The position numbers and the translations under genes were made by a program. Source: a virus. From it: a stretch of DNA of 64,000 nt. Below the pieces are notes generated by a model. That model ran no database searches. It saw only the letters and a list, made by a program, of their open reading frames with translations, and was not told the DNA's origin. Of this stretch, positions 1,990 through 47,933 are shown piece after piece (the stretch's first letter is position 1; each line of letters begins with the position of its first letter). Location: IMG/VR virus record IMGVR_UViG_3300021375_002698; one strand, given 5' to 3'.

Positions 1990-2258
1990 AAGTCGCTCTC
2001 TTTTCTTTTATCTATATATCAAAAAGTTATTCAAAAGTTCTCCCGAAAATTTTTGACCAAAAACTGAAAATTGGTTTATCAAAAAGCGCCGCAAACTACT
2101 ACGAAAAGCTATTTCTTTTCTTTCTACTCTTATCTATATACGTGACTCGTGGTGTTAGGGTAACGAAGAAAATACTTTTAAAAGTTGTGAGTGAGGAGAA
2201 GCGACAGCCGACTTAGGCGCGGCCCGTGTAAATTACTCACTGAGTTTGATATAATATA

Positions 2259-2312
2259 GGGGGCTTTTTAGGGGCCCAAAAAGGGCTACTAAGAGCCCCG
2301 GGGCTTTTGGCC
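2259..2312 (+). ncRNA. GC-rich hairpin directly downstream of promoter 2226 (candidate small RNA or origin element)
   Basis: GGGGCTTTTTAG pairs with CTAAGAGCCCC around an inner GCCC-AAAAA-GGGC stem; no ORF before the next promoter. Confidence 0.45.
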
Positions 2313-2344
2313 TAGTGTAAAATTTAAAATTTAATTGATATAAT

Positions 2345-2535
2345 CATCATGTAATAAATAATAAATAATAAAATTATTTAAAATAAAAAAAATAAAAAAT
2401 AAAAAAATTAAATATTATAAATCAGATATTAATATTAAATGTGTATTTTTAAAATATAATATATATAATATCAATATAATAAATAATAAATAAAAAAATT
2501 ATTTAAAATAATAAAATTAAATATTATAAAACTAT
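2345..2535. other. Almost pure A/T tract (possible DNA-unwinding element)
   Basis: About 190 nt with very few G/C. Confidence 0.5.
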
Positions 2536-2627
2536 AAAGATAGGAAATGAAGGAAAACGAGTGTAAAACGATGAGATCAGATAATACAATCATTATGTAA
2601 TTAATTAATATCTTTGAAAGGATATGT

Positions 2628-3299
2628 ATGAAACATCCACTAATACAAACTGTAATTGATAATGCTGAAACAAGAAAATTCCTTAAAGATCTATTCGAAA
2701 AGAATTTATCTGAGGGTAAAGATAAAACTTCTGTTTTAAGATTTGGGGAAGCCTTGATTGATATATTGAAAGATGAAGTCGGTTCATTAAAAGGAAAACG
2801 TGTAACATCTGGAGATACGGGTTGGCGAACTGAAATAAAATCAATGTTTTCGGGACGAGGAAGACAATGGATTAAAGTTGGAATTGATAAGGTGACACCG
2901 AGATTGGATAAATTTGATGAGGATGGAATTGACACATCAGAATATCGAAAATGGATTAAATCTAAGGATTATGCATGGATTAGATTTAATGGAGCTCGAA
3001 TTAATGATGGTGTAAATTGTGGAGGATTTGAGATAAGAACATCAGGATCCAAAATCGATCATCCGAAACAGTTATGTTATATACCGATGGATGAACTCAG
3101 TGAGGATAAAATCGAAAGATTATCAGGAACTCCCCATTCTATGAGTTTAGAAGTTATAACAGAAAAAGTTGAAGAGGAAACGATTGAGGAAACGATTGAG
3201 GAAAACACGAATCTGGACGAAGAGATTGATACAGAGGAAACAACTGGGGAAGTTACGAATGAAGACGAAGTAGATGAAGAAGATATATACTCTGTGTAA
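2628..3299 (+). CDS. Early paralog family GRGR/AWxRF/GSKxDHP, member 1, acidic tail
   Basis: Promoter 2561, GAAAGG SD; motifs shared with 8384, 28514, 30739. Confidence 0.85.
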   Translation: MKHPLIQTVIDNAETRKFLKDLFEKNLSEGKDKTSVLRFGEALIDILKDEVGSLKGKRVTSGDTGWRTEIKSMFSGRGRQWIKVGIDKVTPRLDKFDEDGIDTSEYRKWIKSKDYAWIRFNGARINDGVNCGGFEIRTSGSKIDHPKQLCYIPMDELSEDKIERLSGTPHSMSLEVITEKVEEETIEETIEENTNLDEEIDTEETTGEVTNEDEVDEEDIYSV

Positions 3300-3334
3300 T
3301 TAGGGTTTGGGTTGGGGATTGATGGATAAACGAC

Positions 3335-3422
3335 GATTAGATAAATGATTTGAAGTTACGATGATTAGATAAATGATTTGAAGTTACGATGATTAGATAA
3401 ATGATTTGAAGTTACGATGATT
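3335..3422 (+). repeat. Three perfect tandem 28-bp repeats GATTAGATAAATGATTTGAAGTTACGAT
   Basis: Units at 3335, 3363, 3391; no spacers. Confidence 0.95.
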
Positions 3423-3520
3423 CGTATCGTCAAACGTGTAAAAATTTGATTCTTTAATGTATAATATACATGTAAGGAAGGAAACAATATTTCAAGCAAC
3501 ATCACGATGAAAGGTTTAAT

Positions 3521-3766
3521 ATGATTTTTGTTTCAGTTGTACAACGTGGATATACAGAGTCGCAGTTATATGGTCCATTTAAAACAGTTGAAGAAGCGCG
3601 TCATGAATTTACTGATAGTGTTACACGAGGAGATGATGGTGACGAAACGAAGTATACATTTTTTGAAGTTAAAAATGAAGTGATGAAAGAAGTTGGATAT
3701 GTTTTGTTTTACGATGAGTGTGATGATAAAGATGATTTTAAGGAAGAATATTTTCTAAACGTGTAA
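3521..3766 (+). CDS. Hypothetical protein, paralog of 18702..18923
   Basis: Shared LYGPF.T.EEA and VG.VLF motifs; own promoter and SD. Confidence 0.8.
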   Translation: MIFVSVVQRGYTESQLYGPFKTVEEARHEFTDSVTRGDDGDETKYTFFEVKNEVMKEVGYVLFYDECDDKDDFKEEYFLNV

Positions 3767-3836
3767 TTTATGAAGTTGTTATATTATAATAACGATGTAA
3801 GGATAATTAATCAATTAACGACGAGAGGTTTATTTT

Positions 3837-3920
3837 ATGGATATTTATGGAATTTTATTAACAATCACAGTGACACTTCCAATGGCTGGGTTTATCTATC
3901 TGTTCTTGTTTGAACAATAA
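3837..3920 (+). CDS. 27-aa single-TM peptide MDIYGILLTITVTLPMAGFIYLFLFEQ
   Basis: Promoter 3761, GAGG SD; hand translation. Confidence 0.6.
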   Translation: MDIYGILLTITVTLPMAGFIYLFLFEQ

Positions 3921-3982
3921 ACGTTGTTTTGAGTTGTCATATTGAAAATATTTTTTAACTACTAACATTAGATGAGTGAGGT

Positions 3983-4171
3983 TTGTGTATGTTGATTTAT
4001 AAGATCCAGGCATTTTTGATTGTATTGTTTTTGTCTATATCTTTTCTTGGGTGTATATGTTTAGCTTATGATGCATATCTAGGTGACGAAGTTAATGTTG
4101 TGTGCTCTGGAGAGGTTTCAAGGAAAGACTGTGATGAGTATAAAGAGACTATTCGTAATCTTGATAGATGA
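3983..4171 (+). CDS. Small membrane/secreted protein
   Basis: GAGG SD; hydrophobic N-terminus. Confidence 0.6.
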   Translation: MCMLIYKIQAFLIVLFLSISFLGCICLAYDAYLGDEVNVVCSGEVSRKDCDEYKETIRNLDR

Positions 4172-4332
4172 CTTGATGTTACAAGGTTAGGATACGTCAT
4201 CTGTGATGTGTAAAATTTATTAATTAAATATTATAATCACCATGTAATAAATAATAAATTATTTAAAAATTAAATAAAAAAAATATTAATTATTATAAAT
4301 CTTTAAAATTTATAAATCTGAAAGGATTTAAT

Positions 4333-4527
4333 ATGAGTTCTGTTAAAATTCGTCAAGTATACATTGAATATCGTGATATGTCTGTTAGAGAGTTCGGTTA
4401 TGACTCTTTTGTAAAAGCTTTATCTCAATTCGTGACAAGAAACGCAGATTTAGGAGATATTGCGATTGCATCTCAGCTTGCTTACCGTTATCTTACTGAG
4501 CAAAGACAACATGATTATATAATTTGA
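4333..4527 (+). CDS. Hypothetical early protein
   Basis: Promoter 4208, GAAAGG SD. Confidence 0.7.
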   Translation: MSSVKIRQVYIEYRDMSVREFGYDSFVKALSQFVTRNADLGDIAIASQLAYRYLTEQRQHDYII

Positions 4528-4726
4528 TGTGACAAGGCTTGGATACGTTCATCAGCGATGTGTAAAATATAAATTTAAAATATTATAATATTTATGTAAT
4601 TAAGGAAAAACGAAAGGCACTATTTGTTAACTAAAGCACAAACTGTTTGCTTTGATATTGTTTTATTAATAATGTTAATTACAGTTTTAGTATATATATT
4701 ATCAACTTAGACTCACGAGTAAATTT

Positions 4727-4912
4727 ATGTTCAATTTATCTAAAGACTTAGTTTCGTTATCATTTAAAGTTAATAAACTAAGTTTTATGCAAACAGTATT
4801 TTTTGGTTTTAAATTATCAGTCAATCTTTTTGTTCTATCATTTCTGGTATCATTACCTTTTTACATTATTTCTAATGCTGCTGTGTTTATTGATTTGATG
4901 TTACAAGGCTAG
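4727..4912 (+). CDS. Hypothetical membrane protein
   Basis: Hydrophobic ORF ending within the palindromic element. Confidence 0.5.
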   Translation: MFNLSKDLVSLSFKVNKLSFMQTVFFGFKLSVNLFVLSFLVSLPFYIISNAAVFIDLMLQG

Positions 4913-5007
4913 GATACGTCATCTGCGATGTGTAAAATTTAATTTTTAATTGATATAATCTTTATGTAATTAAGGATTTAATATAAAATAATCTGAAAGG
5001 ATTTAAA

Positions 5008-5322
5008 ATGCAGGTTTTAAAAAATACAGCTAATAAAACGGGTTTTTTAAATAAGACTGTTGAACAACAAATCGAAGCGTTAGCTGAAGATTTTTGTAAC
5101 GGTATGGACTACGGTTATAAAATCGATTCAGTAAAAAAAGGCAAGAATGGCTTTTACACTGTATCAGTTGTTTGTCCAACTGGAGCTATGGCTGGTGTTT
5201 GTTTTATGTGGAACCCTGAAACTCAAACTGATTATTACCTTGGTGAGCCTATAGGCAATGAAACTTTTGAAATTCACCCAGCACTTTTCGAAGATTTCAA
5301 AGATTATGTTGTTAACGTGTAA
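5008..5322 (+). CDS. Hypothetical early protein
   Basis: Promoter 4930, GAAAGG SD. Confidence 0.8.
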   Translation: MQVLKNTANKTGFLNKTVEQQIEALAEDFCNGMDYGYKIDSVKKGKNGFYTVSVVCPTGAMAGVCFMWNPETQTDYYLGEPIGNETFEIHPALFEDFKDYVVNV

Positions 5323-5395
5323 TAAATTATTTGGTGTGATATAATTTTTATGTAATCAAGGATACAAACTAAAACAATCTGAAAGGATTTAAAAT

Positions 5396-5605
5396 ATGGA
5401 ATTTACGTATGAATCAGTTAACGATGCTTTAAATCGTCATCATCATAATCTTTCTGGTTACTGGTCTACTCTAGGCTGGGACGATAACATTGCGACGGTA
5501 GGTTATATGATGGAAGATGGAACTGAAGAAGACGTTACTGTAGATAAACAAGGAATTGTGCATGCTTCAGAAAAAGTAATGGCAGAGATGCAAGATATAG
5601 GTTAA
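5396..5605 (+). CDS. Hypothetical protein, paralog of 8095..8304
   Basis: Shared EFTY.S.N..L..HH.NL, LGWD..IATV.Y, EDVT.D, ASEK motifs. Confidence 0.85.
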   Translation: MEFTYESVNDALNRHHHNLSGYWSTLGWDDNIATVGYMMEDGTEEDVTVDKQGIVHASEKVMAEMQDIG

Positions 5606-5674
5606 CCTACATCGTGTAACTAAGTCTCTATTTGTTTTATAATTAATCACCACCCGCCAATAGAAGGATTCAAT

Positions 5675-6118
5675 ATGAATTTATCTCAATTAATTAAAAA
5701 TGCTAAACCAATAAATGATACCACAGTGTTAGGATCAGTCTGGACTGATAATAAAGATTTCTGTTCAACAGAGATGCTGAAGTCTGGCGAACAAATGTTA
5801 ACTGATATGGTTGAGTGTCAAGATCTCATTGCAACCTTAGACATCGCAGAAAAAACAAATGTTTCAATACCAAAACTATCAGCGAAATTAATTAAACAAG
5901 ATGATGACTGGGATTTTATCAAAGTAACGATTGAAAGCAAAATACCTGATGAATTTGCTAATCTCATGTGGGATATTCAAGAAGGTCGTTTCCCATCTTT
6001 GAGTTATCGTGAGAAAAAAAGTGAGTATATTACAACAATCAGAACAACATGGAGAATGGATAAATATATTTTATCTGCTGAAGATAATGTTAATATTATT
6101 AATGCAACCTTATCTTAA
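5675..6118 (+). CDS. Hypothetical early protein
   Basis: Promoter 5614, GAAGG SD. Confidence 0.8.
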   Translation: MNLSQLIKNAKPINDTTVLGSVWTDNKDFCSTEMLKSGEQMLTDMVECQDLIATLDIAEKTNVSIPKLSAKLIKQDDDWDFIKVTIESKIPDEFANLMWDIQEGRFPSLSYREKKSEYITTIRTTWRMDKYILSAEDNVNIINATLS

Positions 6119-6240
6119 TTGATTCGAGTCGTCAAGGTTAGGATACGTCATCTGCGATGTGTAAAATTTAATTTTTAATTGATATAATCTTTATGTAAAT
6201 AAGGATTACAATAACATTTTTAAAAGTAAAGGTATTTAAT

Positions 6241-6660
6241 ATGGAAAACGTTTTATCACTATTTAATATCAATCCTAAAAACCCAACGCTTTGCGAAACA
6301 ACAACTCTGGGCCAAGCGAAACGAGGAAATCGTCAGTTTTATGATACTCATCACAAAGTCTCATACATTACATATTTAAACGGATATGTTCGCCGGGAAA
6401 TTAAAGCAACCTACGTTTCACCTTATACAACAAGTCAAATATCTTATAAAGTTCAAGATCAGTTCGTTATTAACAAAAGAACAGCTACAAAACAAACATA
6501 TAAAGCGCCTAACGGATATGAATACTCATACACATCAACTGGAGTTATCAAAGAGCCTTGTGCCCAAAAGCGAATGGATATCATCGATCATCACTCATCT
6601 AACTACAGAGGATATAAAGGTCGATTCGCTAAACCAAATTATACTCTAATCTCTAGATGA
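6241..6660 (+). CDS. Hypothetical basic protein, paralog of 9542..9946
   Basis: Shared R.G....D and GYVRR.IK motifs; promoter 6159. Confidence 0.8.
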   Translation: MENVLSLFNINPKNPTLCETTTLGQAKRGNRQFYDTHHKVSYITYLNGYVRREIKATYVSPYTTSQISYKVQDQFVINKRTATKQTYKAPNGYEYSYTSTGVIKEPCAQKRMDIIDHHSSNYRGYKGRFAKPNYTLISR

Positions 6661-6773
6661 CTTGATGTCGCAAGACTAAGCAACGTCATCTCTTAAGTGT
6701 AAAATTTAATTTATAATTGATATAATCTTTATGTAAATAAGGATTCAATCCAAAATAATCTTAAAGGATTAAT

Positions 6774-7151
6774 ATGACTACTAAAGACTTACTAAACTCT
6801 ACGTATTTTCAAATCGATTATCGATCTCTCCCTTCTGGCATCGGTCATATCAACTACGAAAGTGGTGACGTCGTTCTTGTTACTGAATCTGATTCAGGTC
6901 CTAAAGATATGGAATGCGCAAGAAAAGTTATTCGAGAAGAATATCTTCCATCTTCAATTGATCACATCCCATTCAGTATGGGTGAGTATTGGGAAGCAGG
7001 CCAAGCAGCACTTGAAGCTATCTTAGAAACTCATGATGTTAAATATGTTATCGACTCTGAATTGTCTTATGAAGTGGAAGAAGATCTTGTAGAAGATATG
7101 GAATATCATATCTTTACACTGCAAAACTGGCTCAAAGCTAGAGCAGCCTAA
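6774..7151 (+). CDS. Hypothetical acidic protein
   Basis: Promoter 6697, AAAGG SD. Confidence 0.8.
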   Translation: MTTKDLLNSTYFQIDYRSLPSGIGHINYESGDVVLVTESDSGPKDMECARKVIREEYLPSSIDHIPFSMGEYWEAGQAALEAILETHDVKYVIDSELSYEVEEDLVEDMEYHIFTLQNWLKARAA

Positions 7152-7177
7152 CAAATTTACAAACAAAGGGTTTTATT

Positions 7178-7453
7178 ATGGATCATTTCAGTTTATATGG
7201 CAAAGATCAAATTGGGATTTGTAAAGATCATGAGCGTATATTAGAATTCGCTGATTGTATTTTATTATACGGCTACGCAATAAAAAGTGAGAATATAATT
7301 AAAGATATGAATAAATTTATTGACAATTGTTTAACAAAGCTACTAAGCGATAACTTAAACGATGGATGTCTTGTGTTAGACACTAAACGTGATTATGGAA
7401 TGTTTAAAAACAAAATACAATTAAATAAAATATTGTTAGAGAGTGTTGTTTAA
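7178..7453 (+). CDS. Hypothetical protein
   Basis: AAAGGG SD. Confidence 0.7.
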   Translation: MDHFSLYGKDQIGICKDHERILEFADCILLYGYAIKSENIIKDMNKFIDNCLTKLLSDNLNDGCLVLDTKRDYGMFKNKIQLNKILLESVV

Positions 7454-7551
7454 AATAACGTAGTATCAAGCTTATACAATAAATGACTTGATGTAACATC
7501 GCTTAGAGTCGTCAACGTGTAAATTGTTAAGTTAATTTTGTATAATATAAA

Positions 7552-7620
7552 TTGCATATTATCAGCAATAGAATTTTTTACTATTACTTTTATTATTTGA
7601 ATTGTAGATAATGTGAGCAA
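7552..7620 (+). ncRNA. Candidate ~70-nt hairpin RNA between two promoters
   Basis: TTGC-ATATTATC-AGCAAT pairs with ATTGT-A-GATAATGT-GA-GCAA; no SD/ORF. Confidence 0.4.
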
Positions 7621-7697
7621 TAAATTTTGTGTAAAATTTAATTTTTAATTGATATAATCATCATGTAATAAATAATAAAGATGGAAGGATTTAAAAT

Positions 7698-7973
7698 ATG
7701 GCTTCAATACGTACAACAAACATCGGAGATATTTTAACCATTAAAAAGATTGCTCAATACAATAAGATCTTAACAAATCACAGCGATCATCCTGAATGTG
7801 TTTATCCTAAAGTTACAGATGTTAATAGAATTTTAACAGTAGGTTCAAATTTAACTGTCATAGCTAAGGGAAAGTGTGAAACAAAGTGGGCAGAATCATA
7901 CGTTACTGTTAAAGATCACAATAACAATTCTTTCGATATCTTATCCAGCGATTTGCGAAGATTCTGCAAGTAA
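7698..7973 (+). CDS. Hypothetical protein (SH3-like beta pattern)
   Basis: Promoter 7629, GGAAGG SD. Confidence 0.75.
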   Translation: MASIRTTNIGDILTIKKIAQYNKILTNHSDHPECVYPKVTDVNRILTVGSNLTVIAKGKCETKWAESYVTVKDHNNNSFDILSSDLRRFCK

Positions 7974-8094
7974 CTCTCATTGTGTAAAATTTAATTTTTG
8001 GTTGATATAATCACCATGTAATTAATAATAAATTATTTAAAAATAATATTAATTATATAAATCTTTAAAATCTATAAATCTGAAAGGATTTAAT

Positions 8095-8304
8095 ATGAAA
8101 TTTGAATTTACTTATAACTCTATTAATCATATTTTATATAATCATCATCCTAATCTATGTTCATGGATGTCTTTAGGATGGGATAAAAAAATTGCTACTG
8201 TACAATACAAACTGAAAGATAATACTGTTGAGGATGTCACAATCGATCGTCAAGCCAATGTAACTGCATCAGAAAAGTTAATGGTTGAGATAAATGAAAG
8301 ATAA
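8095..8304 (+). CDS. Hypothetical protein, paralog of 5396..5605
   Basis: Sequence similarity; promoter 7982. Confidence 0.85.
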   Translation: MKFEFTYNSINHILYNHHPNLCSWMSLGWDKKIATVQYKLKDNTVEDVTIDRQANVTASEKLMVEINER

Positions 8305-8383
8305 TAACTTTTAAAGTGTAAAATTTAATTTTTGGTTGATATAATCATCATGTAATTAATAATAAATCTGAAAGGATTTAAAA

Positions 8384-9136
8384 ATGGATAATTTAAATAA
8401 TAAAGATTCTAACTCTAACTCTAACATCCACGAGGTTCTTATGAGCAACGAAACTCAAATCATCGAATTATTTCAGTCTTTTCTTTCTAACGGAGGCTCT
8501 CCTAAAGTTACAAGCTTTAAAAAGCATCTTGATTCACTCATTAATTCAAACATTAAACCTCTTTGCGTTCGTTCTGGAAAAGCACCAGACGGAGATGATT
8601 GGAGATCGGTGCTCAAAGCTTTATTCGGAGGTCGAGGTAAAAAATGGGTTCAAGTCTCTATAGATAACATCATTCCAACTCTTGATCAATTTGACGCTGA
8701 ATATTATGACACTTTAAAATACAGAGAGTTTATTAAAACTGCAGGATTCGCTTGGATTCGTTTCGCCGGTCCTAGAATGGATATGAATATCCAATCAGCT
8801 GCTTTCGAAGTTAGAACTAACGGATCTAAAATTGATCACCCTAAACAACTCCATTATATCCCAGTAGATAAAATTGAAGAGCTCACTGTTACTTTAAACG
8901 GAACTCCTCATTCACTAAAACTAGAATCAAACAACACTGAAGTTGAAACTGAAACTGAAACTGAAGTTGTAACTGAAACTGAAGTTGTAACTGAAGTTGA
9001 AACTGAAACTGAAACTGAAACTGAAACTGAAACTGAAGTTGAAACTGAAACTGAAGCTGATTCAGAATACACAATAGAAATGTTAGATGAAGACTTCTCA
9101 GACTTATATACAGATGAAGAGCTATTTAACGTATAG
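8384..9136 (+). CDS. Early paralog family member 2, (ET)n acidic tail
   Basis: FGGRGKKW, AWIRF, FEVRTNGSKIDHPKQL, GTPHS; promoter 8316. Confidence 0.85.
   Translation: MDNLNNKDSNSNSNIHEVLMSNETQIIELFQSFLSNGGSPKVTSFKKHLDSLINSNIKPLCVRSGKAPDGDDWRSVLKALFGGRGKKWVQVSIDNIIPTLDQFDAEYYDTLKYREFIKTAGFAWIRFAGPRMDMNIQSAAFEVRTNGSKIDHPKQLHYIPVDKIEELTVTLNGTPHSLKLESNNTEVETETETEVVTETEVVTEVETETETETETETEVETETEADSEYTIEMLDEDFSDLYTDEELFNV
8936..9060 (+). repeat. GAAACT hexamer repeat encoding a poly(Glu-Thr) tail
   Basis: Directly visible. Confidence 0.9.
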
Positions 9137-9161
9137 AATGACGTTATCATGCATTTCTTGA

Positions 9162-9201
9162 TTAATATCATTGTTTAAAAGATATCAGGTAATGATATTA
9201 A
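9162..9201. other. 11-bp perfect inverted repeat immediately before promoter 9204
   Basis: TTAATATCATT...AATGATATTAA. Confidence 0.7.
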
Positions 9202-9269
9202 ATGTGTAAATTAAAATGACTACTTATTATAATAACAATGTAAATCAAATTAAAAAAGGATTTTTCTTA

Positions 9270-9476
9270 ATGTTTTATTCTCATCTACAATCATTTGCGA
9301 TTGGAATTATCATCGCTTCTATAACATTTGTAATGTTTCTTCATCACAAAGAAAGCGAGGCGCAAATTAAAAAGACAAATGAAATGATTAAATATACTAA
9401 AGACGTGTGTATAAATCAAAGACCCAAGAATACAGAAACAAAACTTTGCGAGTTCTTAAAAAAGAAGTATTTATAA
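9270..9476 (+). CDS. Single-TM protein (start revised to ATG 9270)
   Basis: AAAGGA SD; promoter overlaps the track's longer start. Confidence 0.65.
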   Translation: MFYSHLQSFAIGIIIASITFVMFLHHKESEAQIKKTNEMIKYTKDVCINQRPKNTETKLCEFLKKKYL

Positions 9477-9541
9477 GTGTAAATACAATCTTAATTTAAT
9501 ATAATTCATATAACAGCTAATTTAATAAAGGCATAAAATTT

Positions 9542-9946
9542 ATGTTTAATACAAAACAATTCACTGATGTTACTTCTGACAAACAACGACGAAGTGGAAC
9601 AACATGTTACAGAGATAATAAAAATCCAGGCGTATTCTATACTTCACATTCAAGCGGTTATGTTCGTAGAGTAATCAAACTGAAGTCTGAACGTATTAAC
9701 AATTTAACAAATGAAAAGAAGACTAAAGAAATTCATACAAAATATCATATCAATCCATCGACTGTGAGCACTCATGAAAGTAACGACAATAAAAAATCAA
9801 TCAGCATTATGCTTCCAACAGAAAACATGCGTTTAAATCGAATTCAAACGCAAGCTGATAAGTTTAATAAAAAACGATTTGTTGCTAATTCGTCATGCGT
9901 TGTAATTAGAGATGACGAAATTATTATTACAACAATTGACGTATAA
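9542..9946 (+). CDS. Hypothetical basic protein, paralog of 6241..6660
   Basis: GYVRRVIK; promoter 9477. Confidence 0.8.
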   Translation: MFNTKQFTDVTSDKQRRSGTTCYRDNKNPGVFYTSHSSGYVRRVIKLKSERINNLTNEKKTKEIHTKYHINPSTVSTHESNDNKKSISIMLPTENMRLNRIQTQADKFNKKRFVANSSCVVIRDDEIIITTIDV

Positions 9947-9993
9947 AGGTTAAACTTGTACTTGATATTTGTTACAATACAAATATTAAATAT

Positions 9994-10066
9994 GGGCAGT
10001 TAGCCAAGCGGTTAAGGCTCCGGTCTCATAAACCGGCGATCCTCGGTTCAAATCCGAGACTGCCCA
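9994..10066 (+). tRNA. tRNA with CAT anticodon (Ile2/lysidine or elongator Met), no encoded CCA
   Basis: Acceptor GGGCAGT/ACTGCCC; anticodon arm CCGGT-CTCATAA-ACCGG; GGTTCAAATCC T-arm; lacks initiator features. Confidence 0.9.
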
Positions 10067-10121
10067 CTTATTTATCTAGTCTTTTAGATGAATAAATTAA
10101 ATATCTTATGAAAGGTTCATT

Positions 10122-10361
10122 ATGAATAAAGAAATTTTTAATACATATAAATCTCTAATAGTTTCAAATACTGTTGATGCTATTAGAGAATCTAAAAATA
10201 CAAACAAATGTTTAACTGAAGTATTATGCTCAAATCATAATAAAAGTACTGATGTTTACAATCAGTTAAATAAACAAATGGTTTCATCAAGCAATCCTAA
10301 CTATCCTTCTAAATCTGGCAATCCTAGCGGTCCAGGCAGAGGTAATTCTCCTAAGAAGTAA
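10122..10361 (+). CDS. Small protein with C-terminal NPNYPSKSGNPSGPGRGNSPKK
   Basis: GAAAGG SD; lies between tRNAs. Confidence 0.65.
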   Translation: MNKEIFNTYKSLIVSNTVDAIRESKNTNKCLTEVLCSNHNKSTDVYNQLNKQMVSSSNPNYPSKSGNPSGPGRGNSPKK

Positions 10362-10416
10362 AACATAAACAAGGTAAATTCTTATCTACAACCTTCAATA
10401 AAATGTAGATACACAT

Positions 10417-10488
10417 GCACTCGTAGCTCAGTGGAAGAGCAGTGGCCTTCTAAGCCATTGGTCGTAGGTTCAAATCCTACCGGGTGTA
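10417..10488 (+). tRNA. tRNA-Arg(TCT), no encoded CCA
   Basis: Cloverleaf; anticodon arm GTGGC-CTTCTAA-GCCAT. Confidence 0.93.
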
Positions 10489-10585
10489 CTAAGTTTCATA
10501 TAACTTTTATTTCTATACAAAAATATAAAATAAATTAATAGCTGATGGTGGTACATTAAACTATTACTTATATGAAACTCCTTAA

Positions 10586-10658
10586 GGATTGTTAGCTCAA
10601 TCGGTAGAGCAGTGGACTTTTAATCCATTGGTTCTGGGTTCGAGTCCCAGACGATCCA
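10586..10658 (+). tRNA. tRNA-Lys(TTT), no encoded CCA
   Basis: Cloverleaf; anticodon arm GTGGA-CTTTTAA-TCCAT. Confidence 0.93.
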
Positions 10659-10696
10659 ATCATATAAGTCATCTTAACTAAAAAAAGGAAATCTTT

Positions 10697-10981
10697 ATGA
10701 AAGATATCAATTTACCTGATAATATCTCACTTATCAACAAAACAATAAATTGCTTCAATCATCAATACCCAAACTTCGATGCGCTTGATGTTGATGATTT
10801 CTTCTCAAATGACTATAAACAATATCACTATCAGGCTTTCATCTCTGATAACGGAAACGTCACACTTGAATTCCCAATAACTGCAGACTCAAACCCAGCT
10901 TCTATAGTCATATCAAAAGAATCAAAAACAATCAAAACTAATCACTCTTTCAAAAAAGAACTAGAAAGAGTAAATAGATAA
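10697..10981 (+). CDS. Hypothetical protein
   Basis: AAAGGA SD. Confidence 0.7.
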   Translation: MKDINLPDNISLINKTINCFNHQYPNFDALDVDDFFSNDYKQYHYQAFISDNGNVTLEFPITADSNPASIVISKESKTIKTNHSFKKELERVNR

Positions 10982-11431
10982 CGAATCACTTATTTTTTAG
11001 TCTCTCACCCCCTGCAAAACTAGATAAAATACAGCGCTACTCAAAACAGAACTGCCCTCAAAATAATTCACGCTCCACAAACTTCTACTACCCTTCGTAT
11101 CGTCAAACACTTCTCACGTAATTCTGTGCTGCCCTATCTAATTTAACACTATCACTTCCAACACATATAACACTCTATCTACTTTCACATAGATCTAGTC
11201 GCAAAGAATAAAATGATAACAATAATATCCACTATAAATAACACAATTTTCTACTCTACATTCATTCTTGTAGGTAACTCATTCCTCTATAACGAATACA
11301 ATCAACTTCATCTATCAGTACTAATCATAACATCAGTTATAGACGCAACTATAGACTAATCCACTACGTGTAATTTTAATAACTATATTGTTATAATAAC
11401 AATGTAAATACCCAATATAAAAGGATAAATT

Positions 11432-11659
11432 ATGGAAAATTACTTGATTTATGTTTACAATATCTGCTGGCCTTCAACAGATAAACACGCTTTCTACAAC
11501 TGCAAAAACATTCCCACTCACTCTTATGTGAAAATACCAAAAGATACTTTCTCTAACGACACAGAACGAAATGTCTTCATTGACTTCATTCTTCTTAATA
11601 ACACGGGAATAAAACCCCTCACATACACATACTCTCTTGAATATGTCTGCCACCTCTAA
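11432..11659 (+). CDS. Hypothetical protein
   Basis: Promoter 11368, AAAGGA SD. Confidence 0.75.
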   Translation: MENYLIYVYNICWPSTDKHAFYNCKNIPTHSYVKIPKDTFSNDTERNVFIDFILLNNTGIKPLTYTYSLEYVCHL

Positions 11660-11677
11660 ACAGAAAGGTTTTCAATC

Positions 11678-11908
11678 ATGAATCCAATTATCAAAGTCAA
11701 AGGTACTGACGGTACTCTATACACTGTCTTCACTTCTCACATTATCTTCTACGAAAGCGTTTCAAAACCTTACTATGATTCCGAAGAACACACATGGCGA
11801 GATTCCGAAGAAGGGTCAATCATACACCTATCTAATAACTTCAACCCTATCAAAGTTACTCAAACTAAAGATGAATTAGATAAACAAATCAACACTTTAA
11901 TAGAATAA
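11678..11908 (+). CDS. Hypothetical protein
   Basis: GAAAGG SD. Confidence 0.75.
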   Translation: MNPIIKVKGTDGTLYTVFTSHIIFYESVSKPYYDSEEHTWRDSEEGSIIHLSNNFNPIKVTQTKDELDKQINTLIE

Positions 11909-11909
11909 A

Positions 11910-12260
11910 AAACAATAAACAGCTACACTCAGCATCAAAACGTTTCGCGCGCCTTGTCCTGTGTTGTAGTTTGAGATATACATCTGTGTATCTGGTTTAG
12001 CGTCTGTAAGTGTTTTGATAAGAGTATGATAAAACATATTGTATTGTTTTTAGAGTGTATCTGAGTTTAAGTTGTACCATTTGTTATTTATGATGTAGTA
12101 TTATTTGCAGGAGTTAGTGAGTGATATGTGTTATAAGTGTTTGTTATATTGGTTGAGTGTATTTGGAGTATATTTTGTATTGTATATGTTATTGGAGATA
12201 TTATATAGTTGAGATTTATTTTTAGTTTCTTTTGAAGGGTTTAAAGATGAATAATATTAG
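11910..12260. other. Intergenic GC-skew inversion centred on AAACGTTT-CGCGCG palindromes (candidate origin or terminal-repeat boundary)
   Basis: 11821-11940 has 26 C/7 G; 12121-12240 has 1 C/29 G (hand count); no change of gene strand. Confidence 0.6.
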
Positions 12261-12342
12261 TGTGTAATATATTGTTTATGTATATTATAATATAGTTGTG
12301 GGGAAGGAAATAATAATTTTAACTGCTTTTGAAAGGTTTGAT

Positions 12343-12675
12343 ATGAAGATTATAGTTGCTTGGAAATTTGGATTGAGAGATCGTGCTGCTAATGGCGAGT
12401 TAAAGAATCATTATATTTCTAATGTTCATGAATATGATGATTTAGATTCTGACGAGAAAGAGATGTTACATGATGCATATGCAAAAGCTATTGGAGTTCC
12501 TGTTACTATTGACTTGAAAGAGTTATTTAATCATCTTGCTACTTTTGAGTTAGAACATTTGTCTAATTACAGTATACATGATGCTTTGCATTTGAAGTAC
12601 TGTTGGGAAGTTGATGGTTTTTTAAAGTTAGATGAAGACGAAGACTATGGAGACAGGTGGAATAAATTAAATTGA
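12343..12675 (+). CDS. Hypothetical protein (start revised)
   Basis: ATG after the leader repeat. Confidence 0.75.
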   Translation: MKIIVAWKFGLRDRAANGELKNHYISNVHEYDDLDSDEKEMLHDAYAKAIGVPVTIDLKELFNHLATFELEHLSNYSIHDALHLKYCWEVDGFLKLDEDEDYGDRWNKLN

Positions 12676-12736
12676 TTGAGAGAATATAAGTGTTGGAAGG
12701 AAATAATATTTTTAACTGCTTTTGAAAGGTTTTATT

Positions 12737-12919
12737 ATGGTTGACAATAATGAAGAGAATAGAGTTAAGTTAGCTGACAAGGTATTTGAGAATATGGATA
12801 AAGATGAGATTAGATTATTAGCTTATAAGAGTTTATTGAAGATTTATATTCATAGTCCTGTTGTTTTTGAGCATGATTGGAATCAAGAGTTTTCTGATGT
12901 TATTGATTTAAGTGAGTAG
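12737..12919 (+). CDS. Hypothetical protein (start revised)
   Basis: ATG after the leader repeat. Confidence 0.7.
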   Translation: MVDNNEENRVKLADKVFENMDKDEIRLLAYKSLLKIYIHSPVVFEHDWNQEFSDVIDLSE

Positions 12920-12953
12920 ATTTTATTTTTAACTGCTTTTGAAAGGTTTAAAC

Positions 12954-13307
12954 ATGAAAATCTTAAATATAACTGGATATAGTTTTAGTAATCCTGACCG
13001 GGTTTTTTATAATGGTGTTAGTGAAGCTGAAATGTTGAATAAGTTAGGCTTAGTAGACGGTAGAACTCTTGAGAATAGTTTGATTAGTCATTTAACTGAC
13101 TGGGTTAATTACAAGAAGATTTTAGATAGTTTTAAAGAAGAGGGTTTTACTCATATTACAAATGATGATGATTCTGTGAATATTATTCATGGTAATAGAG
13201 AAGCTTTGCTTGAAGATCCTATAGATAATGAGATTCAGCGTGCGAGCAAGGGAATAGAACATGTATTATCTCTAGGCAGAATTGATTCTACACAATTAGA
13301 CTTTTGA
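12954..13307 (+). CDS. Hypothetical protein (start revised)
   Basis: ATG after the leader repeat. Confidence 0.75.
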   Translation: MKILNITGYSFSNPDRVFYNGVSEAEMLNKLGLVDGRTLENSLISHLTDWVNYKKILDSFKEEGFTHITNDDDSVNIIHGNREALLEDPIDNEIQRASKGIEHVLSLGRIDSTQLDF

Positions 13308-13336
13308 TTTTTTTAACTACTTTTGAAAGGTTTAAC

Positions 13337-14400
13337 ATGAAATACTTTTTTTTTTACTTTCTTCGAGTGCTTTTTGTAAAGAAAAGATAACATCACATAT
13401 ACAAGCAAATGAGTTTTCTATAGTTGAGCAAATTGTTATAAGAGATAATTTTAATTTATCTCTTCATAAGCTGTTTGGTATGAAGTATAAGATTTTAACT
13501 AGTGAAACAGTATATGAAGAGATAAAAAAGTCAAATTTAAAAATTGAATATGATCAGCAAGAATGTAATTTAAGTTTAGCAAAAAAACTAAAAGCAAAGT
13601 TTTCTTTTATTATTAAAGTTAGAAAAGCAAACAAAAAATATTATACTGTAATAGAGCTTTACAGAATAAAAGATAATGTTTTAATAGACGGATTTAAAGA
13701 AAGTTTTACAGCAAGTAAGAAAAATAGAATGAAGCGCCTTAGTAATGTAATAGAAAAAAATATTTTTAAGTTTAAGTCTAAACTTCTACAAGTTAAATTT
13801 TTAGTTAACAAAAAGATTAGTAACAAAAAGATTAGTAACAAAAAGATTAGTAACAAAAAGATTAGTAGCAAAAAGATTAGTAGCAAAAAGATTAGCAGAC
13901 TACGAACTACATTGAGTGACTTAAAAAAGTATTATCTAGGAAATAGTAGTAAAGATTATAGTAAAAGTTTAAAAAAAGAGTATTCTGATGTTTTATTTGA
14001 AAATAACGTTATATACTCTTTGCTTATAGTCGCAGGAATTACTTTTACTATTAGCGGTTTAGTTTTATTAAAAAAAGCTAAAGAAGATATAAGCAGCAAT
14101 CAAGAAGTTAATTCTATTATTTATCGTAATGGTGAAAAGAAAAAAGTTGTTAGTAGTGTTTTTTTATTTACTGGGTTAATAACAATTATTACTAGCGTAG
14201 CATTTTCTTTGGAGTGTAATAATTTTATAAAAAATGTTTATGAGAACAAATATTTTTTAAATGAAAATAAAACAAAAACTTGCTTATATAATTCAAATAA
14301 AATGAACAGAAAGCTTAATGTTAGTGTTAAAGACAGTATTAGATTTAATTTAAAAGCAAATCGAAAAAGTCTTCAAGGACTTATTACTTTTAAGTTCTAA
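13337..14400 (+). CDS. Envelope protein (signal peptide, TolB-N/DUF2380-like domain, NKKIS repeats, 2 TM) with a frameshift in a T10 tract
   Basis: ATG 13337 follows the leader repeat; one extra T in 13346-13355 joins it in frame to 13480..14400. Confidence 0.6.
13807..13896 (+). repeat. Six 15-bp tandem repeats (NKKIS/SKKIS)
   Basis: A(A/G)CAAAAAGATTAG(T/C) x6. Confidence 0.95.
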
Positions 14401-15881: not shown

Positions 15882-16874
15882 ATGAAAAACAATGCTGTTT
15901 GTTCTTTTATTCTAAATATTGCTATTTTACAATTTACTGGTTGCTCTTCCTTAGTAGACTCTGGACCAGAGCCGCTTTCTAAAGAGGAGTTTGTAAAAGA
16001 AATTACTACAAATATTTTAAGAAACATTGACAAAGAAAATGAAGTTTCTATCAATGTTTCGCAATTAGAAAAAGAAGAGAATGGTTCCATTGGGTCAAAG
16101 GGTGAAACAGGTCCAGTAGGTGAAACAGGCCCAAGAGGTGAAACAGGTCCAAGAGGTGAAACAGGTCCAAGAGGTGAAACAGGTCCAAGAGGTGAAACAG
16201 GTCCAAGAGGTGAAACAGGTCCAAGAGGTGAAACAGGTCCAGTAGGTCCAGCGCCTAACATTGAAGAAATACTCTCAGAATTACAATTGCAAAACAATAC
16301 ACAACAATTGCCACAAGGTCTTGAACCTTTCTCAACATATAAAATAACAGATGAAGGTGAGATTGTTGGAAAGTTAATTAGCAGATATCATAATTTTAGA
16401 AGATACAGCTACAGCACAGACCAGCATACAATGGACATGTGTGAAAACTGGAACATTGCAGTTTATAATGAAGAAGAACAGCAGGTTAAGAAAATTCATT
16501 TTGATACATGTATTAATCAAAAACTTTCAACTTACATGGGATGGGATCCTTGTAGATCTTATACAGGATGGTGGAAGCGACATTCTAATTCATACTTGCA
16601 AGAATATACAACACCAGAAAATGCAAGATGTTCTCATGAGGTTACAGGTGAAAGAGACAATACTTATGAATACTTCAAAGACATAATGCAAAGATGGGTC
16701 ATGTCAGCAGGTAAGCATATTAAATTAAACAATTCTTACTATAAAGTCACAGATACTGAAAGAGTTTATACTGAATTTGTAAATGGTTCGAATACAGTTG
16801 GAGTTCCTCACAAACTTGTCCTTATTTTAGAGTATGTTGGTGAAGAAATAGAAGGTAATGAGTATATTCATTAA
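15882..16874 (+). CDS. Collagen-like repeat lipoprotein
   Basis: Signal with FTGC lipobox; (GETGPR/V)x8. Confidence 0.8.
16101..16244 (+). repeat. Eight 18-bp collagen-coding repeats
   Basis: GGTGAAACAGG(T/C)CCA(AGA/GTA). Confidence 0.95.
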
Positions 16875-26991: not shown

Positions 26992-27792
26992 TTATATTTT
27001 TAAAAAGTTTAGTATATCAGCTCTTGTTGCGCCTAATGAAAGATTAGATTTACTATAAGACACATTTATGTTTCCACACACATAACCATTAGCATTATAA
27101 ACAGCAGACCCAGAGCTTCCTGGTAATGATTCTATTGTATAAAGATTAGTCTTTACTTTTTTATTTTCTTGACTATCTAGATATATACCTGAAAAATTTC
27201 CTTCTCTAAATGGTGCTGATCTTTTGCTATAAAAACCACCTGATGCTGAAATGTTGTATATTCTTTCGCCATACTTACACTCAACATTATTGACTAAGGA
27301 CTTAACTCCCCACTCTTTAATAGTAGTAAATTTACATAAGTCAGTATTATGATCTTTTTTTACTATTTTATCAAAGATATATCTGTTTCCAAAAAAGTCT
27401 TTAATGTAAATTTCAGGAATAATATTTATTTTTTCTTTTACATCTTTACTGTTAAAAACATTTGATATTACTGCTGCAGAAATTATAGAATCTTTTATCA
27501 TTTTAAACTGCTTAGGATCTTTAAACTTTATTGACTCTTCACAAACATGTTCAGAAGTTAGTAGTACTGTTTTATTTTTTTGATGATCAACTATAAACGA
27601 AGAAGCTCTCATGAAGGGTCCATCAATTATTTTACTCATCAAACGTAAAGCAAGCAAATCAACTGTGTCTTTGTTTATTGCAGTTACTTTAATACCGACG
27701 TGAATCATACCAAAAGATTTCTTCATGTGATCTACAGGAATGACTATATCACTAGAGATAATTAAAAAAATAGAAATAATAAATTTAAACAT
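26992..27792 (-). CDS. Secreted trypsin-like serine protease
   Basis: LTSEHVC, DLC, PGSSGS triad motifs; signal peptide. Confidence 0.85.
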   Translation of the reverse strand: MFKFIISIFLIISSDIVIPVDHMKKSFGMIHVGIKVTAINKDTVDLLALRLMSKIIDGPFMRASSFIVDHQKNKTVLLTSEHVCEESIKFKDPKQFKMIKDSIISAAVISNVFNSKDVKEKINIIPEIYIKDFFGNRYIFDKIVKKDHNTDLCKFTTIKEWGVKSLVNNVECKYGERIYNISASGGFYSKRSAPFREGNFSGIYLDSQENKKVKTNLYTIESLPGSSGSAVYNANGYVCGNINVSYSKSNLSLGATRADILNFLKI

Positions 27793-46781: not shown

Positions 46782-47933
46782 TTATTTTTTGTTTTGTGCT
46801 TGATCATGTGATTCTTTCCTTGAGATTCCATTTTTAATCATTTTATTCATTTCAAACTGTGAATTTACTTTATGCGTGTATTTATCACAATTGTCTTTAG
46901 CATTTTCTGGAAAACACTGTAAATTTTCAATAACTTCATTTAACTTTTTAAGTGTATAACATGCTATATGTGCTGAATCTTTGAAAATAATTCTTTCGCT
47001 AGAAGAATGTGATATATCTCTTTCTAGCAATGTTAAACAATTATCTATTGCAGTTTGAAAATATGATTTATAAAGTCTTGATAAACCACAAATATTTTCA
47101 GTTAGAATTGGATTTTTCTTATGAGGCATTGAGCTAGATCCTTTTTGCCCTTTTCTAAAAGGTTCAGCCATCTCATTAATACCATCAATACTATAAATTC
47201 TTATATCATAAGCTATTTTTTCAACTGCTAATATAGTCTTTAATATTGCATAAAAATAGTCTAAGTAAACGTCTCTAGAAACAATTTGAGATGATCTTAT
47301 AGGCTTTAGTCCTAATGATTGTAATGCATTAAATTCGTTTTGTTTTGTATTAGTTGTATAATTTCCTGACGGACCTGATAGTTTTCCATGCGAAATTGTT
47401 GATTTTACTCTTGTTATTTCATCATAAGCTCTTCTTAGCTGAAATATCCATCTACTAAATATATTTTCATAAGTCTGAATTTCAGCAGACTTGCCGTGTG
47501 TTCTAGCTAGAATGTTTGAGTCTGCATGTTTTGACTTTAAAAGTCTTGTTGTATTGTACAAAAGTATATTAAAGTAATTGTTTATTTCTTTTAAACTCTC
47601 TACACACATTAAACTTAAAGATGTATCAAGAACGTCTGAAGATGTTAATCCATAATGTAGCCATCTACCACTATTATCAGGAATTGATTCTTCCAACATT
47701 TGAACAAAAGCTTGTAGATCGTGTCTAGTTTCTGTCTCTATTTCTTTCCATCTATCAACATCTATTTTAACGTTTTCTTTGATTGTTAAAAACTCTTCTT
47801 CAGATATTGTTTTTTCTGTAATGTTCCCGACAAGCGAAGATAAATGTGCTAATTCTACTTTGAGCCAAGTATCAAGCTTGTTTTTTGTTGACCATATATT
47901 GTTTATTTCTTTTACTTTATAGCGAGGTATCAT
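46782..47933 (-). CDS. purB: Adenylosuccinate lyase
   Basis: MIPRY, HYGLTSSD, RTHG, GSSSMPHKKNP, ERDISHSS.ER. Confidence 0.95.
   Translation of the reverse strand: MIPRYKVKEINNIWSTKNKLDTWLKVELAHLSSLVGNITEKTISEEEFLTIKENVKIDVDRWKEIETETRHDLQAFVQMLEESIPDNSGRWLHYGLTSSDVLDTSLSLMCVESLKEINNYFNILLYNTTRLLKSKHADSNILARTHGKSAEIQTYENIFSRWIFQLRRAYDEITRVKSTISHGKLSGPSGNYTTNTKQNEFNALQSLGLKPIRSSQIVSRDVYLDYFYAILKTILAVEKIAYDIRIYSIDGINEMAEPFRKGQKGSSSMPHKKNPILTENICGLSRLYKSYFQTAIDNCLTLLERDISHSSSERIIFKDSAHIACYTLKKLNEVIENLQCFPENAKDNCDKYTHKVNSQFEMNKMIKNGISRKESHDQAQNKK

What the first reader, a model, noticed from the sequence alone, without database searches (positions are those of the whole stretch)
11820..12260. Abrupt GC-skew flip without a change of gene strand
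Seen: C-rich left (26 C/7 G in 11821-11940) and G-rich right (29 G/1 C in 12121-12240), switching within ~30 nt at AAACGTTT-CGCGCG, with a nearby AGATATAC/GTGTATCT hairpin. Genes on both sides are plus-strand, so coding bias cannot explain it, and the skew fades over a few kb. Inference: a replication origin or a fixed genome end or nick site. It also separates cassette arrays A and B.
Basis: partly seen in the sequence, partly recalled or inferred. Interest (0 to 1): 0.7.

Follow-up and report, generated by a model that had tools for sequence, protein, structure and literature searches.

The report
Conserved strand-bias flip in marine phage
In an uncultured marine jumbo phage the DNA switches from C-rich to G-rich at one fixed point between genes on the same strand. 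Three related phages show the same switch, always paired with a second one about 9 kb away, so it most likely marks a place where DNA copying starts (an origin or the edge of a long terminal repeat).

Summary
The switch lies at 11,941/11,942. It is the largest skew jump in the window (delta 1.08; the largest of 200 shuffles is 0.63) and reaches synonymous sites: third-position GC skew goes from -0.7 to -0.86 in four plus-strand ORFs on the left to +0.43 to +0.76 on the right.

It is not a mis-join. Three independently assembled relatives (60-75% protein identity) show the same flip between same-strand ORFs. In each it is paired with a second C-to-G flip 8.7-9.8 kb upstream (window 2,141/2,142). 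The pair brackets a GC-richer, promoter-dense early block. In the complete 239.5-kb relative these are the only two such flips, and the cumulative-skew minimum falls on them.

Four-fold sites show excess A>G and C>T on the strand running 5'->3' away from the flip, which is a single-strand-exposure footprint. Transcription cannot explain it.

Best reading (0.4): a fixed start site for DNA synthesis, one edge of an origin zone. Main rival (0.3): the right edge of a collapsed ~9.8-kb terminal repeat. This needs reads and could not be tested.

Other first readers noted the same pair of flips on overlapping windows of this same genome, not on other DNA.

The parts
10697..11908 (+). Left arm: four small plus-strand ORFs (10697-10981, 11213-11359, 11432-11659, 11678-11908) with C-rich, G-poor third codon positions. 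A phage-type promoter lies at 11368-11397.
   Evidence: Third-position G/C counts are 3/25, 1/13, 5/28 and 3/23. ORF 11432-11659 has a 56%-identical homologue in the same position in L076.
11938..11955 (+). Switch point: an A-run followed by GTTTCGCGCGCCTT. It contains TCGCG (11945) and CGCGCCTT, which is AAGGCGCG on the minus strand (11948-11955).
   Evidence: TCGCG occurs twice on the plus strand of the 64-kb window, and at 20 sites in 239.5 kb of G002. It sits exactly at this flip in the window, in G002 (214824) and in L076 (14330), each time after an A-run. It is absent in G004. WAGGCGCG occurs only twice in the window, at the two flips, in inverted orientation (0.11 expected).
11956..12261 (+). 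Non-coding G/T-rich, nearly C-free tract to the right of the switch. It lies upstream of the next promoter.
   Evidence: Base counts are. No ORF lies here and no terminator-like site was found.
12213..12342 (+). First, degenerate copy of the array B leader with a 6-codon mini-ORF (12248-12268). It is followed by the promoter GTGTAA-N18-TATAAT (12262-12291) and a second leader copy.
   Evidence: Repeat families D4, D6, D12 and D16; promoter scan; sequence.
12343..13307 (+). Right arm: the first plus-strand ORFs (12343-12675, 12737-12919, 12954-13307), with G/T-rich, C-poor third positions.
   Evidence: Third-position G/C counts are 20/8, 15/2 and 17/9, with T in excess.
2142..11941 (+). The ~9.8-kb early block between the two flips. 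All its genes are plus-strand. It holds 19 of the window's 38 phage-type promoters and three tRNA genes. Third-position skew runs from +0.46 to +0.62 at the left to about -0.8 at the right.
   Evidence: Equivalent blocks are G002 206,080-214,830, L076 ~5,300-14,400 and G004 ~88,450-97,350.
1990..2627 (.). Partner flip 1 (switch at 2,141/2,142) in a gene-free region where transcription diverges. It holds the conserved TTCTCCSGAAA motif (about 2038-2050), TAGGCGCG (2214-2221), a promoter (2226-2255), a GC-rich hairpin (about 2260-2310) and a ~250-nt tract of 9-12% GC.
   Evidence: delta 0.86-0.89. The hairpin gives -15.2 kcal/mol, z -1.8. The motifs are conserved in L076, G002 and G004.

Best explanation
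Position ~11,942 is one of two fixed sites, about 9.8 kb apart (the other at ~2,142), from which DNA synthesis repeatedly starts and runs outward on both sides. Each start peels off the parental strand that runs 5'->3' away from the site. The time that strand spends single-stranded leaves deamination-type changes on it (A>G and C>T). This makes it G/T-rich, and it makes the plus strand on the opposite side C/A-rich. I read the pair as the two edges of the phage's replication-initiation zone, which sits at the genome's main point of divergent transcription and encloses the early-gene block. Inside the block both strands are exposed, so the skew largely cancels and GC content rises. Outside the block only one strand is exposed, so the skew becomes extreme and decays over 1-3 kb. 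Shown: the flip itself, its reach into synonymous sites, the substitution pattern, the pairing, the conservation, and the uniqueness within a complete genome. Inferred: that single-strand exposure during initiation of DNA synthesis is the cause, and that the sites are origins rather than ends.
For: (1) The polarity of both GC and AT skew is that of diverging forks. (2) Pooled four-fold degenerate sites from four genomes give: baseline A .39 C .05 G .07 T .50; left of the flip C .19 G .03; right of the flip G .14 C .03. Both transition types therefore fall on the strand that points away from the flip. (3) The bias depends on position, not on the gene. ORFs to the right of the flip share no homology among the four genomes, yet all are G3-rich, with GC3 skew of +0.69 to +1.0 in the first ORF (+0.43 in the window). 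The left ORFs are at -0.48 to -0.86. (4) In the complete 239.5-kb relative G002 only two sites exceed delta 0.7, at 206,080 and 214,835. The cumulative skew minimum is at 214,599 (raw) or 206,077 (detrended). The flip-2 ORF pair is the top outlier of 232 same-strand pairs (z 4.7). (5) Genes run away from the block on both sides. (6) Flip 1 carries a promoter, a structured GC-rich transcript and a 9-12% GC tract, which resembles the promoter-plus-unwinding-element origins of T4 and T7 (the comparison with T4 and T7 is from general knowledge). (7) The large terminase is of the T4 gp17 type (33-39% identity to Flavobacterium phage immuto and to cyanomyoviruses). That type usually packages by headful, without fixed ends. 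(8) Transcription is excluded. All 38 phage-type promoters lie on the coding strand and none is antisense near the flip. The flip sits 310 nt upstream of the next promoter, with no terminator between.
Against: No iterons, DnaA-box-like repeats, promoter or marked unwinding element were found at flip 2 itself. An ordinary origin gives a step in skew that lasts a whole replichore, not a peak that decays in 1-3 kb. The model also needs two initiation sites, conserved at 9-10 kb spacing, for no stated reason. The cumulative-skew minimum is confounded by gene orientation. In G002 and G004 the inner side of flip 1 has little positive skew. Nothing here measures replication.
Confidence: 0.4

Rival explanations
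1. The flip is the right-hand boundary of a ~9.8-kb direct terminal repeat (2,142-11,941) that short-read assembly collapsed into one copy, as happens for T5 and SPO1. The terminase makes staggered nicks at the two boundaries of the concatemer junction. Fill-in synthesis displaces the plus strand from the left edge and the minus strand from the right edge, which gives the in-block gradient. Genome ends that invade a sister repeat prime synthesis outward into unique DNA, which gives the outer arms.
For: There are two sharp boundaries 8.7-9.8 kb apart in all four genomes. The block is the promoter-densest early region (19 promoters in 9.2 kb), like the T5 and SPO1 repeats (T5 annotation; otherwise general knowledge). 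The in-block third-position skew falls steadily from about +0.5 to about -0.8, as the fill-in model predicts. The rare 8-mer WAGGCGCG occurs only at the two flips, inverted. The polymerase is family A, as in T5 and SPO1, and a RecA is present. A circular assembly with a 141-nt end overlap fits a collapsed repeat.
Against: The large terminase is T4-like, not of the T5 or SPO1 long-repeat type. T5 and SPO1 themselves show no comparable same-strand flip at their repeat boundaries. There is no extended bracket repeat between the two flips in any genome. The 8-mer is not mirror-symmetric about the two switch points. No contig of any relative ends at a flip. Two separate processes are needed to explain the inner and outer arms.
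Confidence: 0.3
2. The flip is a site-specific single-strand nick, like the fixed nicks of T5 DNA at GCGC-containing sites. Nick-primed strand displacement or nick translation then exposes the strand downstream of the nick.
For: A CpG-rich motif that is very rare in this genome (TTCGCGCGCC, which contains GCGC) sits exactly at the switch. It recurs at flip 2 in G002 and L076. The T5 nick consensus, as annotated in the T5 record, is Pu|GCGC.
Against: One nick exposes one strand on one side only, but the footprint here has two sides. The motif is absent in G004. Nicks cannot be seen in sequence. The window holds 54 GCGC sites, and none of the others has a flip.
Confidence: 0.1
3. The flip is transcription-coupled mutation or R-loop formation. 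The non-template strand of heavily transcribed early genes loses C and gains G and T.
For: The outer arms do point in the direction of transcription: minus-strand genes lie left of flip 1 and plus-strand genes lie right of flip 2.
Against: The ORFs left of flip 2 are plus-strand, have their own plus-strand promoter (11368) and still have the opposite bias. The G/T-rich tract begins 310 nt upstream of the next promoter. There is no antisense promoter of the phage type and no terminator-like site.
Confidence: 0.05
4. The flip is a mosaic junction: two gene modules of different origin and composition that happen to abut, or an inserted block that splits an older divergent region.
For: Different repeat families lie on the two sides. 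The block has a distinct GC content, 0.36-0.53 in G002 against 0.28 overall.
Against: The same skew profile recurs in four genomes whose genes at the junction are mostly unrelated. The bias forms smooth gradients centred on the flips and includes non-coding DNA.
Confidence: 0.05
5. The flip is an assembly chimera or mis-join at 11.94 kb.
For: None beyond the abruptness of the change.
Against: Three other assemblies from different samples have the same two flips in the same gene order.
Confidence: 0.01

Closest known systems
GC-skew switch at bacterial and phage replication origins (minimum of cumulative skew)
   Same: It has the same polarity (C>G and A>T on the left, G>C and T>A on the right). 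It lies at the global cumulative-skew minimum of the complete relative. Genes point away from it.
   Different: The bias is far stronger (|skew| 0.7-1.0 at synonymous sites) and decays within 1-3 kb instead of lasting a whole replichore. There are two switches 9-10 kb apart. No initiator-binding repeats were found.
Single-strand-time gradient of the vertebrate mitochondrial heavy strand (strand-displacement replication)
   Same: Both A>G and C>T build up on the displaced strand, graded with distance from the start site. The effect is visible at four-fold sites.
   Different: The system is entirely different: a 240-kb dsDNA phage. The gradient spans only a few kb and is two-sided. This is a resemblance in mechanism only.
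Long terminal repeats of T5 (10.2 kb) and SPO1 (13.2 kb) with pre-early or host-takeover genes
   Same: A block of 9-10 kb packed with strong early promoters and small genes, with sharp boundaries. The DNA polymerase is family A.
   Different: The terminase is T4-like. T5 and SPO1 show no such same-strand skew flip at their repeat boundaries. Duplication of the block at the genome ends has not been shown.
T4 oriF/oriG and the T7 primary origin (a promoter followed by a DNA-unwinding element)
   Same: Flip 1 has a promoter, a short structured transcript without an ORF, and a ~250-nt tract of 9-12% GC.
   Different: Flip 2, the finding itself, has no promoter or marked AT tract at the switch. 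The known origins of this type are not marked by local skew flips.
Fixed single-strand nicks of T5 DNA (Pu|GCGC)
   Same: A rare GCGC-containing motif lies exactly at the switch and recurs in two relatives.
   Different: The footprint is two-sided. The motif is missing in one relative. No nick has been demonstrated.

Membership tests
Replication origin marked by a GC-skew switch | Skew changes sign with C>G to the left and G>C to the right, independent of gene strand | tested here: met
   The same holds in three relatives.
Replication origin marked by a GC-skew switch | Global minimum of cumulative skew in the complete genome | tested here: met
   The G002 minimum is at 214,599 (raw) or 206,077 (detrended), which are the two flips. 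This is confounded by gene orientation.
Replication origin marked by a GC-skew switch | Initiator-binding repeats or an unwinding element at the site | tested here: inconclusive
   There are no iterons at flip 2. An AT tract and a promoter are present at flip 1 in the window and in L076, but not clearly in G002 or G004.
Replication origin marked by a GC-skew switch | Nascent-strand or copy-number peak at the site | not testable with these tools
   No reads or replication data were available.
Long direct terminal repeat (T5/SPO1 type) | The same sequence is present at both physical ends; twofold read depth; read-start pile-ups at the boundaries | not testable with these tools
No contig ends at a flip.
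Long direct terminal repeat (T5/SPO1 type) | The block carries early or host-takeover genes with dense strong promoters | tested here: met
   There are 19 phage-type promoters in 2,226-11,397, and the block consists of small ORFan genes.
Long direct terminal repeat (T5/SPO1 type) | The large terminase groups with long-repeat packagers | tested here: not met
   The best matches are T4 gp17-type terminases: immuto and Mel-JY01 at 39%, cyanomyoviruses at about 33%.
Long direct terminal repeat (T5/SPO1 type) | Known members show a comparable compositional flip at the repeat boundary | tested here: not met
   T5 boundary at 10,219: |skew| is at most 0.26 in 500-nt bins and there is no same-strand flip. 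SPO1: the largest jump, 0.43, is at 13,968, next to a minus-strand gene at the repeat boundary.
T4 oriF/oriG-type R-loop origin | A promoter immediately followed by an unwinding element at the initiation site | tested here: not met
   This is for flip 2: the nearest downstream promoter is 310 nt away, and the nearest upstream one is at 11,368. Flip 1 is inconclusive.
T5-type fixed nick site | A GCGC-containing consensus at the site | tested here: met
   TTCGCGCGCC lies at 11,943-11,952. The T5 consensus is as annotated.
T5-type fixed nick site | A physical interruption of one strand in virion DNA | not testable with these tools
   This needs virion DNA.

The most novel reading that the evidence does not exclude
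This lineage of uncultured marine jumbo phages carries a near-saturated, nucleotide-sharp single-strand-exposure footprint around two fixed sites. These sites are cut or nicked by a site-specific enzyme that recognises the conserved A-run|TTCGCG junction. The 9-10 kb block between them would then be a replication bubble or terminal repeat of a kind not described for phages with T4-type terminases. If so, composition alone could map initiation or cleavage sites to the base in phages that have never been cultured.
Probability: 0.3. Interest if true: 0.7.

Novelty: new variant of a known kind. Interest (0 to 1): 0.55.

Why it matters
Origins and physical ends are almost never known for uncultured phages. 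Here a purely compositional signal pins two candidate sites to within a few bases, and the signal is conserved across a clade of ~240-kb marine phages. It is strong: 74 G against 4 C, and 39 G against 0 C, at the third positions of single genes. A bias that strong means a long or frequent single-stranded state near these sites, which says something about how these phages start copying or cutting their DNA. It also warns annotators that codon usage in this group depends on a gene's position, not only on its history. The prediction can be tested cheaply by re-mapping existing metagenome reads.

Tried and rejected
- No near-identical DNA in cultured phages, and no genome is held for the window.
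- The ORFs that flank the flip have no Pfam or PHROG family and no relatives in IMG/VR.
- Only tRNAs were found by Rfam.
- Pattern scans of IMG/VR returned only the L076 contig for the flip-1 25-mer and nothing for the array B leader.
- The A2 profile scan added no new genome.
- The metagenome scan gave closer relatives that cover flip 1 only.
- The scan of bacterial genomes found nothing.
- Bracket repeats shared by the two flips were not supported beyond one rare 8-mer in the window.
- The hairpin at 11,974-11,993 is not significant.
- A cluster of contig ends just past the ligase gene looked at first like a physical end. It is a hypervariable island where assemblies break.
- I considered a 2-aminoadenine (Z) genome, which could boost A>G. 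I dropped it because the enzyme is PurA-like (317 bits) rather than PurZ-like (117 bits).
- More distant contigs that share only the PurB gene lack this terminase, so I did not use them.
- Models based on 5'->3' end resection predict the opposite sign of skew inside the block, so I rejected them.

Full report
**What the window is.** It is an AT-rich (about 28% GC) stretch of a large uncultured phage. Minus-strand genes fill 1-1,989. A 31-kb run of small plus-strand genes fills 2,628-33,331. Mostly minus-strand genes follow, including an ATP-dependent DNA ligase, PurA-, PurB- and GuaC-like enzymes, GroEL and a sigma factor. No cultured phage shares DNA with it. Relatives at 60-75% protein identity exist in marine IMG/VR contigs. 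One of them, G002 (IMGVR_UViG_3300033183_000491), is complete. It is 239,550 bp with a 141-nt end overlap, which indicates a circular assembly, and it is syntenic with the window.

**The observation.** Skew in 200-nt windows runs from -0.60 at 11.0-11.2 kb and -0.31 at 11.7-11.9 kb to +0.75 and +0.91 at 12.0-12.3 kb. AT skew changes from about +0.15 to -0.29. The change happens at ...CAAAAC|GTTTCGCGCGCC (11,941/11,942). With 400-nt arms the jump is 1.08, the largest in the window; 200 shuffles of the G/C labels reach at most 0.63.

The ORFs on both sides are plus-strand. A phage-type promoter at 11,368 drives the last two left-hand ORFs. The bias reaches synonymous sites. Third-position G/C counts are 3/25, 1/13, 5/28 and 3/23 on the left, and 20/8, 15/2 and 17/9 on the right. 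Among 84 same-strand neighbouring ORF pairs this is the top outlier (z 3.9).

**It is one of a pair.** A second C-to-G flip lies at 2,141/2,142 (delta 0.86-0.89), where minus-strand genes meet plus-strand genes. Between the two flips lie 9.8 kb that hold:
- 19 of the window's 38 GTGTA-N18/19-TAWAAT promoters (0.64 expected by chance);
- the array A repeats;
- three tRNA genes.

Inside this block third-position skew falls steadily from +0.46 and +0.62 at the left, through about 0, to about -0.8 at the right.

**Relatives.** The same architecture is present in three other assemblies.

| Genome | Flip 1 | Flip 2 |
|---|---|---|
| G002 | 206,080 | 214,780-214,835 |
| L076/L103 (IMGVR_UViG_3300030118_007125) | ~5,300 | ~14,400 |
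| G004 (IMGVR_UViG_3300035145_003993) | ~88,450 | ~97,350 |

- In each genome, plus-strand ORFs flank flip 2. Third-position skew jumps from about -0.5 to -0.7 up to +0.69 to +1.0. One G002 gene has 74 G against 4 C at third positions, and one G004 gene has 39 G against 0 C.
- In the whole G002 genome these are the only two sites with delta above 0.7. The flip-2 ORF pair is the top outlier of 232 same-strand pairs (z 4.7).
- The cumulative skew minimum in G002 is at 214,599 (raw) or 206,077 (detrended).
- The block is richer in GC than the rest of the genome: up to 0.53 in G002 against 0.28 overall.
- ORFs to the right of flip 2 share no homology among the four genomes. Left-hand ORFs are shared only within the two sub-lineages. 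The composition therefore follows position, not gene history.

**What kind of bias it is.** I pooled four-fold degenerate sites from the four genomes.

| Position | A | C | G | T |
|---|---|---|---|---|
| Baseline | .39 | .05 | .07 | .50 |
| Left of flip 2 | .34 | .19 | .03 | .43 |
| Right of flip 2 | .33 | .03 | .14 | .51 |

On the right the plus strand has gained G at the expense of A and has lost C. On the left the same has happened to the minus strand. So A>G and C>T build up on whichever strand runs 5'->3' away from the flip, and the effect fades over 1-3 kb. This is the footprint expected from time spent single-stranded, as on the displaced heavy strand of vertebrate mitochondrial DNA (established knowledge; a resemblance in mechanism only). 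If both strands are exposed inside the block, the skew cancels and GC content rises, which is what is seen.

**What it is not.**
- *Transcription.* The left ORFs are transcribed rightward yet carry the opposite bias. The G/T-rich tract begins 310 nt upstream of the next promoter (12,262). No antisense promoter of the phage type and no terminator-like site were found.
- *5'->3' end resection.* These models predict the opposite sign of skew inside the block.
- *A general property of long terminal repeats.* T5 and SPO1 show no same-strand flip at their repeat boundaries.
- *A property of the nearest cultured terminase relative.* Flavobacterium phage immuto has no such pair of flips.

**Sequence at the switch.** TCGCG is very rare: two plus-strand sites in 64 kb and 20 in 239.5 kb. 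Yet it lies exactly at flip 2 in the window (11,945), in G002 (214,824) and in L076 (14,330), each time after an A-run. G004 lacks it. WAGGCGCG occurs only twice in the window, at 2,214 (+) and 11,948 (-), which are the two flips. There is no extended direct or inverted similarity between the two flips in any genome, and the 8-mers are not mirror-symmetric about the two switch points.

Flip 1 is better conserved. It has a TTCTCCSGAAA motif, a promoter and a GC-rich hairpin transcript in all four genomes. In the window and in L076 it also has a tract of very low GC (9-12% in the window, about 16% in L076).

**Origin or end?** The footprint says that DNA synthesis starts at each flip and runs outward both ways.

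Evidence that favours origins:
- the cumulative-skew minimum falls on the flips;
- genes point away from the block on both sides;
- flip 1 has a promoter followed by an AT tract;
- the large terminase is of the T4 gp17 type, which usually means headful packaging without fixed ends.

Evidence that favours a collapsed ~9.8-kb terminal repeat:
- the boundaries are paired and sharp;
- the block is early and dense in promoters;
- the in-block gradient matches a staggered-nick and fill-in model;
- the rare inverted 8-mer marks both flips;
- the polymerase is family A and a RecA is present, with no family B polymerase.

No contig of any relative ends at a flip. That is not informative, however, because a collapsed repeat assembles straight through. 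I put 0.4 on an origin zone, 0.3 on a repeat boundary and 0.1 on a nick site. Transcription-coupled bias, a mosaic junction and a mis-join together get about 0.1.

**Earlier notes.** Other first-stage notes on overlapping windows of this same genome had pointed to the second flip, the GC-rich inverted motif and the flip-1 promoter/hairpin/AT tract. I re-tested each of these here. None of the notes concerns other DNA.

Noticed in passing
window 46782-50324 (-): Three adjacent genes for purine interconversion: PurB-like adenylosuccinate lyase (46782-47933), PurA-like adenylosuccinate synthase (48077-49339; PurA 317 bits against PurZ 117 bits) and a GMP reductase/IMPDH-family enzyme (49281-50324). 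Together they could turn GMP into AMP, which would suit a 28% GC genome. The cluster is conserved in dozens of IMG/VR contigs.
   Followed up: partly
window 2628-3299 and 8384-9136 (+): Two paralogous proteins of unknown family lie inside the block (shared motifs GRG..W, LD.FDE.G.DT, GSKIDHPKQL). They are conserved in L076, G002 and several Tara/IMG metagenome contigs, and both have acidic repeat tails.
   Followed up: partly
window 2260-2310 (+); L071 6140-6215; L076 5315-5365: The first promoter of the block fires into a GC-rich hairpin cluster with no ORF (GGGGCCC...GCCCCGGGGC). The cluster is conserved in all four genomes although its surroundings are AT-rich. It is a candidate small RNA or origin primer.
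   Followed up: partly
window ~2038-2050; L071 ~5910-5925 and ~6095-6105: A palindrome-like motif, TTCTCCSGAAA(W)TTTT, is conserved just left of flip 1 in all four genomes. G002 and G004 have a second, looser copy just right of the flip (exact in G002, one C short in G004).
   Followed up: no
whole window: There are 38 matches to GTGTA-N18/19-TAWAAT (0.64 expected), every one on the local coding strand. The -35 box is unusual and may be read by the phage's own sigma factor (58960-59730).
   Followed up: partly
window 35792-38056 (-): A 754-aa ORF with no family is absent at this position in G002 and G005. Several relatives' contigs end just past the neighbouring ligase gene, so this is a hypervariable island where assemblies break.
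   Followed up: partly
window 15882-16874 (+), 13791-13910, 8918-9085: Repeats inside genes: a collagen-like run of period 9 and 18 nt (GxY), a 15-nt tandem array, and an ACTGAA(A/G)TTGAA array encoding a Thr/Glu-rich tail.
   Followed up: no
window 26992-27792 (-): A single minus-strand gene sits inside the plus-strand run and gives the only strong negative skew jump in the window (-0.73 at 27,014).
   Followed up: no
window 12248-12268 (+): A degenerate first copy of the array B leader is followed by a 6-codon mini-ORF (MNNISV). Its stop codon is the GTGTAA box of the next promoter.
   Followed up: no
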